NCBI GenBank assembly: GCA_963662405.2
Contig: CAXXKT010000001.1
Coordinates: 2,560,001-2,624,000, forward strand
DNA length: 64,000 bases
From: Syntrophales bacterium
GTDB taxonomy: Bacteria; Desulfobacterota; Syntrophia; Syntrophales; UBA2210
Direction of reading: 5' to 3'
The notes under the pieces: model-generated
Databases searched by the model: none
What the model saw: the letters and a program-made list of their open reading frames with translations, nothing else
What the model was told of the DNA's origin: nothing
Translations under genes and position numbers: made by a program
Shown here: piece after piece, positions 6,050 to 10,102 of the stretch
How positions within the stretch are numbered: the first letter of the stretch is position 1
Layout: every line of letters starts with the position of its first letter

Positions 6050-7969
6050 ATGAACGGGCGCTTTCGCATAGGATGGCTGATGTTCTGTGCCACCGTTGTC
6101 TTCATGAATCCGGGCATTACCCTGATGCCCCATGGCGGTGTTTCTCACGCTGCGGGGAACCCCCCGCCGATTATTACACCGATACAACAGCCCGAGGTCA
6201 AACAATCGGCACCGGGCAGTTCCCAGCCGGTGGTCGTTCCCTCCCGTGAGGGACCGTTCTATGCCGTGCAGGCGGCCGCCTGCCGCCGGGAAGAAAACGC
6301 CCGGATCATCATGCAAAAACTGGAGGGGAGGGGATACGAACCGATCCTCTATTCGTGGGCGGACTCGGCGGGAGACGCGTGGCACTCGGTGTTTCTCGGC
6401 CTCTGTGACACTGCCGCCGAGGCTGAGACCGTTGCGCGGCGATACCGCGAAGCGGAGGGAACGGCCGGCTTTATCAAGGTGCTCGACCGGTATGTCCCGG
6501 TGGTGGCTGCGGCACCCGTGACCCACCTCCCCGAACCGCCGTCCCGTCAACCTCAAGTGACGGCTGATCCGAGGCAGGGAAAGACGGCACCGGCCGCCCG
6601 CGATCCGAAAGCCGTTGAGACGGCGGAAGAAGAAAACACCGGCCCGGAGTTTTCCTGTAGCGGTTTTGTCGAGCTCGAGAGTTTCGTCAACACGGGAAAG
6701 GCGGGGAGTGCCAAGGTCAAGAACAAAAAGAACGAGATCCGAAACCGTCTCCGGATACGGTATGGAACCGAGAGCCTCTATCTCTATTCCGTCTCGAACC
6801 TCTATCTTTTCCAGACCTATATGAATGGTGATGCGAACGATCGCTACCGCTATGCAAAGAGACAGGAGGTGTCACGGAACCTGAGGCTTTCCGAGGAAGA
6901 GAGCGAGCTGTCCTTTGATGAACTCTACCTCAACTACGGCGGAAAACATTTCAGACTGCGCGCGGGGAATCAGATATACGCCTGGGGGACGGCAGATGCC
7001 TTCAACCCGACGGCATACTTCAACCCGTCCGACATGCGGGAGATGCTCTTTCGGGACGACGATGAAGAGAAGGCGGGGGTCCCCTCCCTTTCCGGGATGT
7101 TTTTCTTGGGCGACTGGACCCTGGAGACCGTTCTCGTCCCCGTGCATGTCCCCCCGATTATGCCGGTGGAAGGGGACTTCTGGTCCCTCGCGATTGACAA
7201 TACGCTCCTGCCGGTCGTCTTCGATGAACCGGACACCCTCAGTTTCGGTGCCGACCATGTCGGGTACGGCGCCCGGCTCTCGACCAGTTTTGGGAGTGTC
7301 GATATGTCAGTGAGCGGATACTACGGACCGGACAGGAACCTCCTCTTTATCCCTTATGAGGTCACCTTTGACGGCTTTACCCCCGTCTGTCTCCGGATCA
7401 GGCCGCAGTCCTTTATGGTGACGATGTTCGGATTCGACCTCTCGGCGGTCCTGGGCGATGTCGTTGTCCAGGTTGAGGCGGTCTATTCGCCCGACAAGGT
7501 GGGGGTCGTCGAGCAGCGGACCACCAATCTCATGAGCGTGACCCTCCCCTTCGAGACGGACCGGGCGCATTATGTCTCCTACTCCGTCGGATTCAACTAT
7601 TTTATCCCCCTCGATACTCTGATAGAGGGACACACGGGGGATACAGTCTTCACCGCCGAGTGGTACACGGCGCAGTATCTGGAAGGGGGGATCTACACCC
7701 CGTATATCACCAATATCCTGAGCTGCAAGTTCCAGGACAGTTACTTCGACGGCCGTTTTAAGACGACCGTCAAGGGGATCTTCGATACGAGACACGGGGG
7801 AAAGATCTTCTGGCCCGAGATCAGGTATGACTTCCAGAACGGATTCCTCATCGAGCTCGGCTATGCCGCCATCTGGGGGGATAGGGGCGATTCATGGGAA
7901 GACGATTCGCTCTTCTCCTATTTCGAGGATAATGATGTGGTCATGATGAAGGTTCGCTACCAGTACTGA
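6050..7969 (+). CDS. Exported protein: SPOR peptidoglycan-binding domain, Pro/Ala linker and putative outer-membrane beta-barrel (DUF1302-like)
   Basis: Signal-peptide-like N-terminus; SPOR pattern YAVQAAAC..EENA....L...GY...W.SVFLG....AEAE; barrel-like ELYLNY..LRAGNQIYAWGTADAFNPT; aromatic C-terminus KVRYQY. Confidence 0.7.
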   Translation: MNGRFRIGWLMFCATVVFMNPGITLMPHGGVSHAAGNPPPIITPIQQPEVKQSAPGSSQPVVVPSREGPFYAVQAAACRREENARIIMQKLEGRGYEPILYSWADSAGDAWHSVFLGLCDTAAEAETVARRYREAEGTAGFIKVLDRYVPVVAAAPVTHLPEPPSRQPQVTADPRQGKTAPAARDPKAVETAEEENTGPEFSCSGFVELESFVNTGKAGSAKVKNKKNEIRNRLRIRYGTESLYLYSVSNLYLFQTYMNGDANDRYRYAKRQEVSRNLRLSEEESELSFDELYLNYGGKHFRLRAGNQIYAWGTADAFNPTAYFNPSDMREMLFRDDDEEKAGVPSLSGMFFLGDWTLETVLVPVHVPPIMPVEGDFWSLAIDNTLLPVVFDEPDTLSFGADHVGYGARLSTSFGSVDMSVSGYYGPDRNLLFIPYEVTFDGFTPVCLRIRPQSFMVTMFGFDLSAVLGDVVVQVEAVYSPDKVGVVEQRTTNLMSVTLPFETDRAHYVSYSVGFNYFIPLDTLIEGHTGDTVFTAEWYTAQYLEGGIYTPYITNILSCKFQDSYFDGRFKTTVKGIFDTRHGGKIFWPEIRYDFQNGFLIELGYAAIWGDRGDSWEDDSLFSYFEDNDVVMMKVRYQY

Positions 7970-7994
7970 CCGTTTCATTCAAAAAGGAGGAATG

Positions 7995-8004
7995 ATAAAA
8001 AGTC
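7995..8004. repeat. Left sub-terminal inverted repeat of the IS
   Basis: ATAAAAAGTC is the exact reverse complement of 9362-9371; imperfect extension TTCATG/CATGAA. Confidence 0.85.
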
Positions 8005-8014
8005 TTCATGAGCT

Positions 8015-8187
8015 GTGAATTGGGATACACTGTTTGAAACTTTATAGTTTTGGGCAGCAAGGCTACTGTTCGACATGTTTACTGGTCTTCGAGACCGCAA
8101 AGGAGAATGAAGAGCTGTAGCCGCAACATTCAATGATCTTCGAGATCGAATAGGAGATTGGGACCAATTCACCTGACAGGCGCTGTC
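8015..8187 (+). ncRNA. Putative bridge RNA/seekRNA of the IS110 element
   Basis: Closing stem GTGAATTGG (8015-8023)/CCAATTCAC (8164-8172); stem GGCTAC/GTAGCC; two internal loops each capped by a TCTTCGAGA hairpin; loop arms match the target and the donor junction. Confidence 0.8.
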
Positions 8188-8208
8188 CAAGATGTGAGGA
8201 GGCGTTCT

Positions 8209-9321
8209 ATGAAGATGAGTATCGGGGTTGACCTTCACAAGACGCAGTTTACCGTTTGTTGTTTGAGTGAAGATCGGAGTGTTCAGGAGTCGGGCATCTA
8301 CCCGACGACTGATCGAGGTTACCGGGCATTTATCATGAAGGTGTCCAACTGGAATGAGGGCGGTTACGAGGTCACGGCAGCGGTGGAATCAACAGGGAAC
8401 ACCCGACACTTTCGCAACCGGTTTTTGAAGGCGGGGATTGAGGTCAAGATAGTGAACACCTTGAAATTCAAGGTTGTAAATGAGTCAGTAAAAAAGACTG
8501 ACAAGCATGATTCCCGCACATTGGCTGAGTTTCTTGAGAAAGATATGCTTCCCGAGTCCATTCTTTGTTCGCAGGAAAGCGAGGACATTCGAAGGCTTCT
8601 CAAGTCACGTTCTGTTCTGGTGAAAGCTTTGGTATCCTTGAAAAACCAGATACACGGTTTATTGCTTGGATATGGGATAGAGAGTCGGCGGGGACAGCTG
8701 CAGAGCAAAAAAGAAAGGCAGCGAATCCTTGACGGTCTCGCGGACCATAGGAGTTACGGAAACGCTGCCCGAGCGGTAAAACCGCTTCTTGGTACAATAG
8801 ACCAAATTGCATCCGAGGTCAAAGGACTTGAGCGCGTATTATCTGATCTTGTTTCTGAAGACGAGGATGTTGCTCTGTTGCAAACGATTCCTGGCGTTGG
8901 AATAATAACAGCAGCGACGATTCGGGCTTATACCGATGACATCAACCGATATGAGAGCGCCAAGCAGTATGCTGCTCATGCCGGTTTGGTACCATGGGTT
9001 CAAAACTCCAACAAGACCATTCGCCATGGTCATATTACCAAGCGAGGCCCCGTGGAACTGAGGACGGCTTTTGTGCAAATGGTAATGGGGATGCTACGGC
9101 TTCGGAATAAAACCGATGGATATTGGCTTATGTACAAATACAAAGCCATGAAAGAGAACAAGGGAACCGGGAAGAGCGTAATAGCGACGGCGCGAAAGAT
9201 GAGCACTATTGTATATGCCATCTTGAAGAAGGGGGAGCCGTTTGATCCATCGAAAATGCTGCCAGACCCGAAATATGTAGAGATGAGTAAGGTTGCGAGG
9301 TGTTATGCTTTGGCCGTTTAA
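8209..9321 (+). CDS. IS110-family DEDD recombinase/transposase (370 aa)
   Basis: GVDLHK (D), VESTG (E), KTDKHD (D,D); LQTIPGVG; AGLVPWVQNSN (catalytic Ser region); GHITKRG; GAGGAGG RBS before ATG 8209. Confidence 0.95.
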   Translation: MKMSIGVDLHKTQFTVCCLSEDRSVQESGIYPTTDRGYRAFIMKVSNWNEGGYEVTAAVESTGNTRHFRNRFLKAGIEVKIVNTLKFKVVNESVKKTDKHDSRTLAEFLEKDMLPESILCSQESEDIRRLLKSRSVLVKALVSLKNQIHGLLLGYGIESRRGQLQSKKERQRILDGLADHRSYGNAARAVKPLLGTIDQIASEVKGLERVLSDLVSEDEDVALLQTIPGVGIITAATIRAYTDDINRYESAKQYAAHAGLVPWVQNSNKTIRHGHITKRGPVELRTAFVQMVMGMLRLRNKTDGYWLMYKYKAMKENKGTGKSVIATARKMSTIVYAILKKGEPFDPSKMLPDPKYVEMSKVARCYALAV

Positions 9322-9329
9322 ATTTTAAC

Positions 9330-9357
9330 CATGGGCCTGTTTGACAGGCTCTCCATG
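9330..9357 (+). other. Hairpin in the IS right end, just after the transposase stop
   Basis: CATGG-GCCTGT-ttg-ACAGGC-tct-CCATG. Confidence 0.55.
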
Positions 9358-9361
9358 AATT

Positions 9362-9371
9362 GACTTTTTAT
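9362..9371. repeat. Right sub-terminal inverted repeat of the IS
   Basis: GACTTTTTAT, complementary to 7995-8004; overlaps the TTGACT -35-like box. Confidence 0.85.
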
Positions 9372-9382
9372 AGGAGGAAGAC

Positions 9383-10102
9383 ATGAAGGAGCAAAATCGG
9401 AGCGCCCTGATACTGGGTGTCTGTATCTTTCTGGGACTGGCCTTTCTCGGGTTTTTCCTGGGGCAGAGCGCCCTGAAGGTTAAGGCGTATGAACGGACCG
9501 TGACCGTGAAGGGGCTCTCGGAGCGGGAGTTCCCGGCCGATATCGTCCTCTGGCCGATCCACTTTTCCACGTCGGACAACGATCTCACGGACCTGTACGC
9601 GGCCATCGAACGGGATTCGCAGGAGATTATCGGATTCCTGAGGAAGAGTGGATTCGAAGGGGGGGAGATCACGGTGTCTTCCCCCGGGATTACCGACAAA
9701 TTGTCCCAGGGATACGAAAAATCGAAGATCGAGTTCCGCTATACCGCCGCCCGGACCATCACGGTCTATTCCACCAAGATCGAAGCGGTGCGCTCCGCAA
9801 TCAACGGGCTGGTCGAACTGGGGAAGAAAGGGATCGCCTTTACCGACAACACCTATCAGGGCCTGCCCGCGACGGAGTACCTCTTCACCCGCCTGAACGC
9901 GGTCAAACCGGGCATGATCGAGGAGGCCACGATGAAGGCGCGGGAGGTGGCGATCAAATTTGCGCAGGACTCCGGCAGCAGGGTGGGGAAGATCAAACGG
10001 GCGAGGCAGGGACAGTTCTCGATCTCAGACCGGGATCGGAATAATCCGCACATCAAAAAAATACGGGTCGTCTCGACGGTCGAATATTATCTGTCGGATT
10101 GA
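9383..10102 (+). CDS. SIMPL domain (DUF541) protein
   Basis: N-terminal TM, ERTVTVKGLSERE..AD.VLWPI, KFAQDSGSRVGKIKRARQGQFSI, KKIRVVSTVEYYL. Confidence 0.9.
   Translation: MKEQNRSALILGVCIFLGLAFLGFFLGQSALKVKAYERTVTVKGLSEREFPADIVLWPIHFSTSDNDLTDLYAAIERDSQEIIGFLRKSGFEGGEITVSSPGITDKLSQGYEKSKIEFRYTAARTITVYSTKIEAVRSAINGLVELGKKGIAFTDNTYQGLPATEYLFTRLNAVKPGMIEEATMKAREVAIKFAQDSGSRVGKIKRARQGQFSISDRDRNNPHIKKIRVVSTVEYYLSD

What the first reader, a model, noticed from the sequence alone, without database searches (positions are those of the whole stretch)
8015..8187. Two-loop bridge-RNA-like structure whose arms match the target and the donor
Seen: inside the closing stem 8015-8023/8164-8172 are two near-symmetric modules. 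Module 1 (within stem GGCTAC/GTAGCC) is CATGTTT-ac-tGGTCT-tcg-AGACCg-c-AAAGGAG-a. Module 2 is CATTC-aa-tGATCT-tcg-AGATCg-a-ATAGGAG-a. AAAGGAG (8099-8105) equals the left half of the reconstructed target. ATAGGAG (8150-8156) equals the left half of the circle junction, and CATTC (8127-8131) is the exact reverse complement of its right half GAATG. CATGTTT (8074-8080) can pair with target AGACATG (7/7 with one G-U), which includes the start codon; in the register symmetric to module 2 only GAA.A pairs, so this arm's register is uncertain. Known: IS110 bridge RNAs have separately programmable target- and donor-binding loops. Inference: a natural ~170-nt programmable recombination guide aimed at RBS/start-codon sites, and a candidate genome-editing system.
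Basis: partly seen in the sequence, partly recalled or inferred. Interest (0 to 1): 0.9.

Follow-up and report, generated by a model that had tools for sequence, protein, structure and literature searches.

The report
Bridge RNA aimed at ribosome-binding sites
This is the guide RNA of an IS110-family jumping gene: its loops spell the element's own ends and a ribosome-binding site, so copies land just ahead of start codons; the kind is known, the wiring is a variant.

Summary
Window 7990-9376 is a 1387-bp IS110-family element with 9 identical copies in this genome. Its left non-coding end, 8015-8172, folds into a closing stem around a 5' hairpin and two hairpin-with-internal-loop modules. Covariation in 25 homologues supports the fold.

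The loop arms track the DNA across 64 arm sets from 109 elements.
- The 3' arm of module 1 equals the 7 nt left of the insertion point.
- The 5' arm of module 2 is complementary to the first 5 nt of the element.
- The 3' arm of module 2 equals the invariant right end.

It is therefore a bridge RNA (seekRNA), a kind described in 2024.

The claimed fourth arm, CATGTTT pairing with AGACATG, fits this copy only. Right flanks differ among the 9 copies and element-specific covariation is weak. However, the leading CAT occurs in 54 of 54 ribosome-binding-site-targeting arm sets and in 0 of 10 retargeted ones.

The variant features are an IS1111-type guide order and 10-bp subterminal repeats, combined with an IS110-type upstream RNA gene. 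IS900 and IS901 were already known to insert between the Shine-Dalgarno sequence and the start codon. Interest is moderate.

The parts
7983..7989 (+). Left target half-site AAAGGAG, a host Shine-Dalgarno-like sequence. Its last AG is the inferred crossover (core) dinucleotide.
   Evidence: 8 of 9 own copies have AAAGGAG here and 1 has TAAGGAG. Identity to the RNA's 3' arm at positions -1 to -7 is 0.98 to 0.79 over 85 sites, and falls to 0.25 and 0.20 at -8 and -9.
7990..9376 (+). IS110-family insertion sequence, 1387 bp.
   Evidence: 9 copies at 100% identity with different flanks.
7990..7994 (+). Left terminal 5 nt, GAATG (right donor half at the circle junction).
   Evidence: Complementary to 8127-8131. 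The pair covaries in homologues: CATAC with GTATG, CATGC with GCATG, CGTGC with GCACG.
7995..8004 (+). Left subterminal inverted repeat ATAAAAAGTC. It overlaps a TG-extended -10-like hexamer, TAAAAA, at 7996-8001.
   Evidence: 10-bp perfect inverted repeat, 5 nt from each end. Promoter parts found by script on the joined ends.
8015..8172 (+). Bridge RNA core: closing stem 8015-8023/8164-8172 around a 5' hairpin (8030-8057), the target-binding module and the donor-binding module.
   Evidence: 90.8% of cells are paired against 24.7-44.5% with slid partners. 14 of 35 pairs show changes on both sides. Invariant U-G pairs fit only the + strand RNA.
8061..8122 (+). Target-binding module: stems 8061-8066/8117-8122 and 8068-8071/8112-8115, distal hairpin 8083-8097.
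   Evidence: Helices 4 and 5 are 95.6% and 92.7% paired, with compensatory changes.
8074..8082 (+). 5' arm of the target loop, CATGTTTAC, the putative right-target guide. It is complementary to the spacer plus ATG of this copy's right flank in 8 of 9 positions, one of them a G-U pair.
   Evidence: CAT is present in 54 of 54 SD-type arm sets and 0 of 10 retargeted sets. Covariation of the six variable positions is weak (59 of 2000 permutations at the best of six offsets).
8099..8105 (+). 3' arm of the target loop, AAAGGAG. It has the same sense as the left target half, so it pairs with the bottom strand.
   Evidence: Retargeted relatives carry CACGGAG, AGGGGAG, TAGGGAG or CACAGAG, each equal to its own left flank.
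8127..8131 (+). 5' arm of the donor loop, CATTC. [quoted passage not shown]
   Evidence: 296 of 305 positions pair, against 276.0 +/- 2.3 after permutation; 0 of 5000 permutations reach it.
8134..8148 (+). Distal hairpin of the donor-binding module.
   Evidence: 95.3% paired. A-U to G-C change in 12 of 25 sequences and C-G to U-A in 9 of 25.
8150..8156 (+). 3' arm of the donor loop, ATAGGAG. It has the same sense as the element's last 7 nt.
   Evidence: Invariant in the 28-sequence alignment A1 and required by the parse pattern elsewhere. The right end TTGACTTTTTATAGGAG is near-invariant.
8209..9321 (+). DEDD recombinase gene (370 aa).
   Evidence: Pfam PF01548 and PF02371. NCBIfam NF033542 'IS110 family RNA-guided transposase' at 228.9 bits, cut-off 140. 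D8, E60, D98, D101 and S267 are invariant in 17 homologues. Matches the IS621 and ISCro4 chains.
9360..9376 (+). Right end TTGACTTTTTATAGGAG: a -35-like TTGACT (9360-9365), the right subterminal repeat GACTTTTTAT (9362-9371), and the left donor half ATAGGAG (9370-9376), which also serves as a replacement Shine-Dalgarno sequence.
   Evidence: When the ends are joined, 17 nt separate the -35 from the TG-extended -10.
9377..9385 (+). Right flank of this copy, GAAGACATG: a 6-nt spacer and the start codon (9383) of a SIMPL/DUF541 gene, 9383-10102.

Best explanation
Window 8015-8172 encodes the bridge RNA (seekRNA) of an active IS110-family insertion sequence, 7990-9376.

Inferred by analogy with IS621:
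- When the element circularises, its joined ends form a promoter that transcribes the RNA and the recombinase gene.
- The RNA binds the DEDD recombinase.
- Recombination happens at the shared AG (CT on the other strand).

Shown by covariation:
- The donor loop holds the joined ends. [quoted passage not shown] Inferred at about 55%:
- The 5' arm of the target loop, CAU plus six variable U-rich bases, pairs loosely with the spacer and AUG.

The element lands between the ribosome-binding site and the start codon, in the same direction as the gene. Its right end supplies a new AGGAG at the old distance from the start codon. Host transcription can read into the element.
For: Recombinase family.

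Activity: 9 identical copies at different sites.

RNA fold conserved with compensatory changes: 69 cells changed on both sides against 25.1 +/- 5.4 in shuffles, 0 of 500 reaching it.

Arm-to-DNA covariation over 64 arm sets:
- Left target: 364.5 against 313.6 +/- 4.2, 0 of 5000 permutations reaching it.
- Right donor: 296 of 305 against 276.0 +/- 2.3, 0 of 5000.

Natural retargeting: 7 relatives with non-SD 3' arms show 6 or 7 of 7 identity to their own left flanks. An eighth, L059, matches its own left flank in 6 of 7 positions with the limits found; the parse misplaced its left end.

Crossover limited to the last AG: in L059 the target reads AGAG and the donor GGAG, and each junction keeps its own form.

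Junction promoter: TTGACT, 17 nt, TG-n-TAAAAA.

CAT-to-SD association: 54 of 54 against 0 of 10.

Spacer from AGGAG to ATG: 6 nt in 39 and 5 nt in 16 of 78 sites.

Mechanism of the family: PMC11208160, PMC11208158 and PMC11187229 (passages read).
Against: - No RNA, binding or recombination data exist for this element. No RNA run was listed, and no circle or empty-site joint was seen in contigs.
- The right-target arm shows only weak element-specific covariation: 59 of 2000 at the best of six offsets, and none in the first, smaller set.
- In the own genome the distance to the start codon ranges from 5 to 9 nt, and 2 of 9 copies precede no real ORF (11 and 4 codons).
- The register that pairs CAT with ATG is shifted 2 nt from the donor loop's register.
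- The CAT-to-SD association is not corrected for shared ancestry.
- Preference for a 6-nt spacer could simply reflect natural spacing. In genome G001, TAGGAG-N6-ATG accounts for most of the excess over the reversed-pattern control.
- The single-sequence fold z-score is only -2.2.
- Rfam gave no match.
Confidence: 0.88

Rival explanations
1. It is the same RNA-guided element, but the target loop reads only the 7-nt left half-site. The 5' arm is not a guide. Copies are seen at gene starts because insertions at the other AAAGGAG sites, mostly inside genes, are lost by selection, while a site whose ribosome-binding site is rebuilt is tolerated.
For: - Right flanks vary, and fixed-register covariation is absent or weak.
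- Of 908 free AAAGGAG sites in the genome, 212 (23.3%) precede an ATG plus an ORF of at least 50 aa.
- A crude gene call puts 683 of the free sites inside genes, 118 in intergenic non-SD positions and 107 at called gene starts.
- If only non-genic sites survive, about two thirds of them are SD-type. Then 7 to 8 of 9 is unremarkable (my estimate, p about 0.1).
- Half-match recombination is reported for IS621 (bioRxiv 10.64898/2026.08.31.748434, abstract read).
Against: - CAT is lost in all 10 retargeted arm sets and kept in all 54 SD-type sets, although the helices stay.
- Several retargeted relatives show 6 to 8 nt of complementarity between the 5' arm and their right flank at offset -1 or 0 (L140, L141, L174, L152, read by eye).
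- 72 of 78 unique sites across the family have an ATG within 2 to 9 nt.
Confidence: 0.35
2. The region is only a structured 5' leader of the recombinase mRNA, or its repeats are DNA-level protein-binding sites that copy the element's ends. It is not an RNA guide.
For: - It lies directly upstream of the recombinase gene.
- No transcript data exist.
- Internal copies of end sequences do occur in other transposons (general knowledge).
Against: - The arms change together with the flank of each relative, including the host target, which is not part of the element.
- The arms sit in internal loops of helices kept by compensatory changes and by U-G pairs that exist only in the + strand RNA.
- The recombinase passes the NCBIfam model named 'IS110 family RNA-guided transposase'.
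Confidence: 0.04
3. The matches are chance similarities in an A/G-rich leader.
For: The motifs are short (5 to 7 nt), and AGGAG is common upstream of genes.
Against: 0 of 5000 permutations reach the observed arm-to-flank agreement in either test. The pattern holds from 91% down to 31% protein identity.
Confidence: 0.01

Closest known systems
IS621 / ISCro4 bridge RNA and recombinase (IS110 group; Durrant 2024 PMC11208160, Hiraizumi 2024 PMC11208158)
   Same: - DEDD plus Tnp-domain recombinase with the catalytic Asp/Glu set and Ser.
- RNA encoded in the long left end upstream of the gene.
- A 5' hairpin, then a target loop, then a donor loop.
- Each loop reads both DNA strands on either side of a shared dinucleotide.
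- 3'-side arms end in AG.
- A promoter is split between the two ends.
   Different: - The guide order is reversed. [quoted passage not shown] IS621 is the opposite (passage).
- The shared dinucleotide reads AG on the gene's strand. It is CT only on the other strand.
- The subterminal repeats are 10 bp, not 2-3 bp.
- Both modules sit inside one closing stem.
- The 5' arms do not cover the core.
- The protein matches IS621 only over the C-terminal half at E = 3e-18.
IS1111-type seekRNA elements (ISEc11, ISPa11, IS4321; Siddiquee 2024 PMC11187229)
   Same: - The guide order is the same: the top-strand complement lies 5' of the bottom-strand match. The paper states this, and I saw it by eye in an IS4321 copy (L183).
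- Long perfect subterminal inverted repeats with short terminal extensions.
   Different: - The RNA gene is upstream, not downstream, of the recombinase. The paper notes a few such exceptions, for example ISMtsp17 (section read).
- Protein identity to IS4321 is only 26.6% over 77% of the length.
- The protein has 370 aa, against 330-350 in that family.
- The motif around the Ser reads GLVPxxxxSN, not S/T-G.
IS900 / IS901 of Mycobacterium avium (IS110 family)
   Same: They insert between the Shine-Dalgarno sequence and the start codon of host genes (PMC2942039 passage; PMC8141618 passage).
   Different: - In IS900 the transposase lies on the strand opposite to the host-dependent hed ORF, which relies on host signals. 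Here the recombinase runs in the same direction as the host gene.
- The published target consensus for IS900 is recalled from memory and was not seen in any call.
- I found no report reading a guide RNA for these elements.

Membership tests
IS110-family RNA-guided (bridge) recombinase elements, broad sense | DEDD RuvC-like domain plus Tnp (PF02371) domain, with the catalytic Asp/Glu set and Ser | tested here: met
   PF01548 at 68.4 bits and PF02371 at 72.7 bits. NF033542 at 228.9 bits, cut-off 140. D8, E60, D98, D101 and S267 are invariant in 17 homologues.
IS110-family RNA-guided (bridge) recombinase elements, broad sense | Structured non-coding RNA in a long non-coding end, with two internal loops | tested here: met
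   The left end is 219 nt and the right end 55 nt. The fold is supported by covariation.
IS110-family RNA-guided (bridge) recombinase elements, broad sense | Loop arms covary with the target flank and with the element's own ends | tested here: met
   0 of 5000 permutations reach the observed value for the left target or the right donor. The left donor is invariant and identical. The right target is weak.
IS110-family RNA-guided (bridge) recombinase elements, broad sense | No target duplication beyond a shared core, and site- and orientation-specific insertion | tested here: met
   All 9 copies follow (A/T)AAGGAG in one orientation. The shared stretch is limited to AG by L059.
IS110-family RNA-guided (bridge) recombinase elements, broad sense | The RNA is transcribed, binds the recombinase and is required for recombination | not testable with these tools
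   No RNA run was listed. A junction promoter is predicted only.
IS110 group (IS621-like) | [quoted passage not shown] | tested here: not met
   The order is reversed in both loops (against the passage).
IS110 group (IS621-like) | RNA gene in the left end upstream of the recombinase, with short (2-3 bp) subterminal repeats | tested here: inconclusive
   The upstream position is met. The repeats are 10 bp, so that part is not met.
IS1111 group | Subterminal inverted repeats of 7-17 bp with terminal extensions | tested here: met
   10-bp perfect repeat, 5 nt from each end. 8 bp in the Lentisphaeria-type relatives (read by eye).
IS1111 group | [quoted passage not shown] | tested here: met
   The rule is from PMC11187229. 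The same order was seen by eye in IS4321.
IS1111 group | Long non-coding region downstream of the recombinase gene | tested here: not met
   The long non-coding region is upstream (219 nt). Downstream there are only 55 nt.
IS1111 group | Transposase related over its full length to that of IS1111 | not tested
   Only 26.6% identity over 77% of the length to IS4321-family proteins. No tree with ISfinder references was made.

The most novel reading that the evidence does not exclude
This widespread clade (Desulfobacterota, Spirochaetota and Lentisphaerota records) may be an evolutionary link between the IS110 and IS1111 groups. It combines IS1111-type guide order and long subterminal repeats with an IS110-type upstream RNA gene.

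Its target loop may also be written to read a whole translation-initiation signal. That would mean a firm 7-nt Shine-Dalgarno guide plus a tolerant U/G-rich arm ending in the anticodon-like CAU for the start codon.

On this reading the element rides on host promoters and leaves translation of the host gene intact.
Probability: 0.35. Interest if true: 0.55.

Novelty: new variant of a known kind. Interest (0 to 1): 0.4.

Why it matters
The finding gives an RNA-level explanation for an old observation, that some IS110-family elements insert between the ribosome-binding site and the start codon.

It also shows natural reprogramming within one clade. Most members are SD-type, and some have been retargeted to other 7-mers.

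It documents an element that mixes the hallmarks used to separate the IS110 and IS1111 groups. That bears on how the guide RNA moved between the element's ends during evolution.

As an editing tool it is unpromising as found. Only about 7 target nucleotides are firm, and this genome holds 908 free perfect sites.

Tried and rejected
- Rfam scan of 7800-9600 at E up to 10: only two chance-level matches, isrD and sR30.
- RNA evidence: no RNA holder was listed among 23 runs.
- Contigs of 4 runs laid on 7900-9470 gave no joints, so neither a circle junction nor an empty site was seen.
- RNAalifold on the first MAFFT alignment missed the closing stem, because the 5' part was misaligned. I trimmed the sequences at the stem and counted a structure that I named myself.
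- Fixed-register covariation of the 5' target arm with right flanks gave nothing in the first set of 21 arm types (all offsets). An ATG-anchored version gave 58 of 2000.
- Test for a preferred 6-nt spacer in genome G001: 69 sites with TAGGAG-N6-ATG out of 194 with N4-9, against 26 and 140 for the reversed pattern. Natural spacing there is already mostly 6 nt, so no extra preference can be claimed.
- The idea that the invariant AAUG after both 3' arms is a handshake guide for the donor was rejected. It does not change when the left end changes (alignment, by eye).
- The idea that the miniature elements in L018, L019 and L025 are remnants cut at the guide-coding DNA was rejected by alignment.
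- A search for the recalled IS900 target consensus string found only unrelated primer hits.
- No phylogeny with named IS110 and IS1111 references was made. The plasmid search gave only relatives at 22-27% identity.
- The parse patterns recovered 109 elements from 166 loci. The rest were truncated or divergent and are not counted.
- One parsed row (L059) has a misplaced left end, which lowers the counts rather than raising them.

Full report
**What is in the sequence**

The region lies upstream of a 370-aa ORF at 8209-9321.
- The ORF carries DEDD_Tnp_IS110 and Transposase_20.
- It passes NCBIfam NF033542, 'IS110 family RNA-guided transposase', at 228.9 bits against a cut-off of 140.
- It matches the solved IS621 and ISCro4 recombinases over its C-terminal half (E = 3e-18 and 1e-18).
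- D8, E60, D98, D101 and S267 are invariant in an alignment of 17 homologues.

**Limits of the element**

The whole genome holds 9 copies at 100% identity. Aligning their flanks places the element at window 7990-9376, 1387 bp.
- The left flank ends in AAAGGAG in 8 copies and TAAGGAG in 1.
- The element starts GAATGATAAAAAGTC and ends TTGACTTTTTATAGGAG.
- The right flank differs in every copy. In 8 of 9 it holds an ATG 5 to 9 nt on.
- 7 of 9 copies precede an ORF of 71 to 239 codons. Two precede only 11 and 4 codons.
- The window copy sits 6 nt before the start codon (9383) of a SIMPL/DUF541 gene.
- A 10-bp perfect inverted repeat lies 5 nt from each end.

**The RNA fold**

The single sequence folds modestly better than shuffles (z = -2.2). 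I counted a named structure on a MAFFT alignment of 25 homologues that had not been fitted to any structure. The structure comprises the closing stem, the base of the 5' hairpin, the two-part stem of module 1 and both distal hairpins.
- 90.8% of cells are paired, against 24.7-44.5% when partners are slid.
- 14 of 35 pairs change on both sides.
- 69 cells change on both sides, against 25.1 +/- 5.4 in shuffles; 0 of 500 shuffles reach this.
- The closing stem changes completely in some relatives, from GGTGAATTG/CAATTCACC to GGATAATAG/CTATTATCC.
- Invariant U-G pairs exist only in the + strand transcript.

**Do the arms track the DNA?**

I collected 77 related loci from genomes and 80 from metagenomes, the best of 324. 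Patterns parsed 109 elements from 166 loci, giving 64 distinct arm sets.
- The 3' arm of module 1 is identical to the left flank at positions -1 to -7. Identities are 0.98, 0.99, 0.98, 0.95, 0.95, 0.92 and 0.79 over 85 unique sites. At -8 and -9 they are 0.25 and 0.20.
- With arms permuted among sets, the score is 364.5 against 313.6 +/- 4.2, and 0 of 5000 permutations reach it.
- The 5' arm of module 2 pairs with the first 5 nt of the element in 296 of 305 positions, against 276.0 +/- 2.3; 0 of 5000 reach it. The changes are matched: CATAC with GTATG, CATGC with GCATG, CGTGC with GCACG.
- The 3' arm of module 2 and the right end are both essentially invariant and identical.
- Seven relatives in this parse have been retargeted to CACGGAG, AGGGGAG, TAGGGAG or CACAGAG. 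Their 3' arm equals their own left flank in 6 or 7 of 7 positions.
- An eighth, L059, has TTGAGAG as its arm and matches its own left flank in 6 of 7 positions.
- In L059 the target reads AGAG and the donor GGAG, and each junction keeps its own form. Exchange must therefore happen within the last AG.

**The fourth arm**

CATGTTTAC (8074-8082) pairs with this copy's right flank GAAGACATG in 8 of 9 positions. But the RNA is the same in all 9 copies and their right flanks differ.

Across relatives, element-specific covariation of the six variable positions is weak.
- It is absent in the first set.
- It is 127.7 against 116.6 +/- 5.8 (59 of 2000) at the best of six offsets in the larger set.
- One position, RT+5, stands out at 13 of 2000.

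Three points nevertheless speak for a guide role.
- The leading CAT is present in 54 of 54 arm sets whose 3' arm ends in AGGAG. It is absent in all 10 retargeted sets (Fisher p = 7e-12, not corrected for ancestry).
- The distance from AGGAG to ATG is 6 nt in 39 of 78 unique sites and 5 nt in 16. A 6-nt spacer is the register in which CAT meets ATG.
- Several retargeted relatives show 6 to 8 nt of complementarity between this arm and their right flank (by eye).

I could not show that the spacing preference exceeds natural spacing.

In the own genome, 212 of 908 free AAAGGAG sites (23.3%) precede an ATG plus an ORF of at least 50 aa. Seven of nine copies at such sites is enriched against all sites. 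It is not clearly enriched if insertions inside genes are lost by selection. The half-site reading therefore stays open.

**How it most likely works**

Joining the ends puts TTGACT (9360-9365) 17 nt before TG-n-TAAAAA (7993-8001), which is a junction promoter as in IS621 (PMC11208160 passages). The RNA would start near 8008.

The donor loop holds the joined ends and the target loop holds an SD site. Exchange at AG then inserts the element in the gene's direction. The right end leaves ATAGGAG at the same distance from the start codon, so translation signals are rebuilt. These steps are inferred from the anatomy and from the published mechanism of IS621. None was observed here.

**Comparison with known systems**

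[quoted passage not shown] Here the order is reversed.

Siddiquee et al. report exactly this reversal as the difference between IS1111-type and IS110-type seekRNAs. They also report that a few IS1111-type elements carry the non-coding region upstream. I saw the IS1111 order by eye in an IS4321 copy with 12-bp subterminal repeats.

The element thus has IS1111-type guides and repeats, with an IS110-type position of the RNA gene. Read on the strand opposite to the gene, the site has a CT core and fits the IS621 geometry. That is an inference.

Target choice between the SD and the start codon is reported for IS900 and IS901.

A 2026 preprint clusters 32,190 predicted bridge RNAs into 86 models, many unlike IS621. 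Its supplements were not seen and may already hold this clade.

Searches found no paper that links a bridge RNA to Shine-Dalgarno targeting.

Seven earlier notes of this scan describe the same kind of element in other genomes. They agree with this reading but are not independent evidence.

**Verdict**

This is a new variant of a known kind, of moderate interest.

Noticed in passing
L018:1179-1287, L019:1144-1287, L025:1146-1287: Miniature elements of 108-143 bp carry the family's termini (GAATGATAAAA... and ...TTTTTATAGGAG, or ...TTCTTATAGGAG in L018) but no RNA gene or recombinase. Each lies directly upstream of a full copy. They look like non-autonomous derivatives, and the full element has landed on the SD-like right end of the miniature one.
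   Followed up: partly
L048:2622-2685: Two right ends lie in tandem, 29 nt apart. This fits repeated use of the AGGAG site that each insertion recreates.
   Followed up: no
G000 contig 1: 128997, 879852 (425-aa frames); 164559, 1416307, 159075, 305388 and contig 2: 343803 (329-aa frames): The same genome holds two further IS110-family elements, in 2 and 5 copies. Their guide RNAs and targets were not examined.
   Followed up: no
window 8054-8098 (run X4, table 7): A metagenome contig follows the element up to 8098. It then continues as TAAGGAG plus a spacer and the ATG of an unrelated gene. The break lies exactly at the DNA that encodes the left-target guide, so it may be a truncated element or a rearrangement at this internal target-like site.
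   Followed up: no
window 9336-9376 (run X1): A contig holds only the last 41 nt of the right end, followed by a flank that is not among the 9 assembled copies. This is either a solo right end or an unassembled tenth site.
   Followed up: no
L140, L141, L146, L151-L153, L167, L170, L174: Relatives from metagenomes are retargeted to non-SD 7-mers. Where both flanks were recovered, the same short motif recurs on both sides of the insertion point in several of them (L140, L141, L153), which suggests tandemly repeated targets. L140 holds two copies in tandem.
   Followed up: partly
window 7992-8018: A short ORF of 8 codons starts 2 nt after the host SD, at the very left end of the element. The spacing is too short for a likely translation start.
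   Followed up: no
window 8176-8188: A small conserved hairpin (ACAG-GCG-CTGT) lies between the closing stem and the recombinase's own ribosome-binding site. RNAalifold also proposed pairing of this stretch with the 3' half of the 5' hairpin. It may be an alternative structure or a processing site.
   Followed up: no
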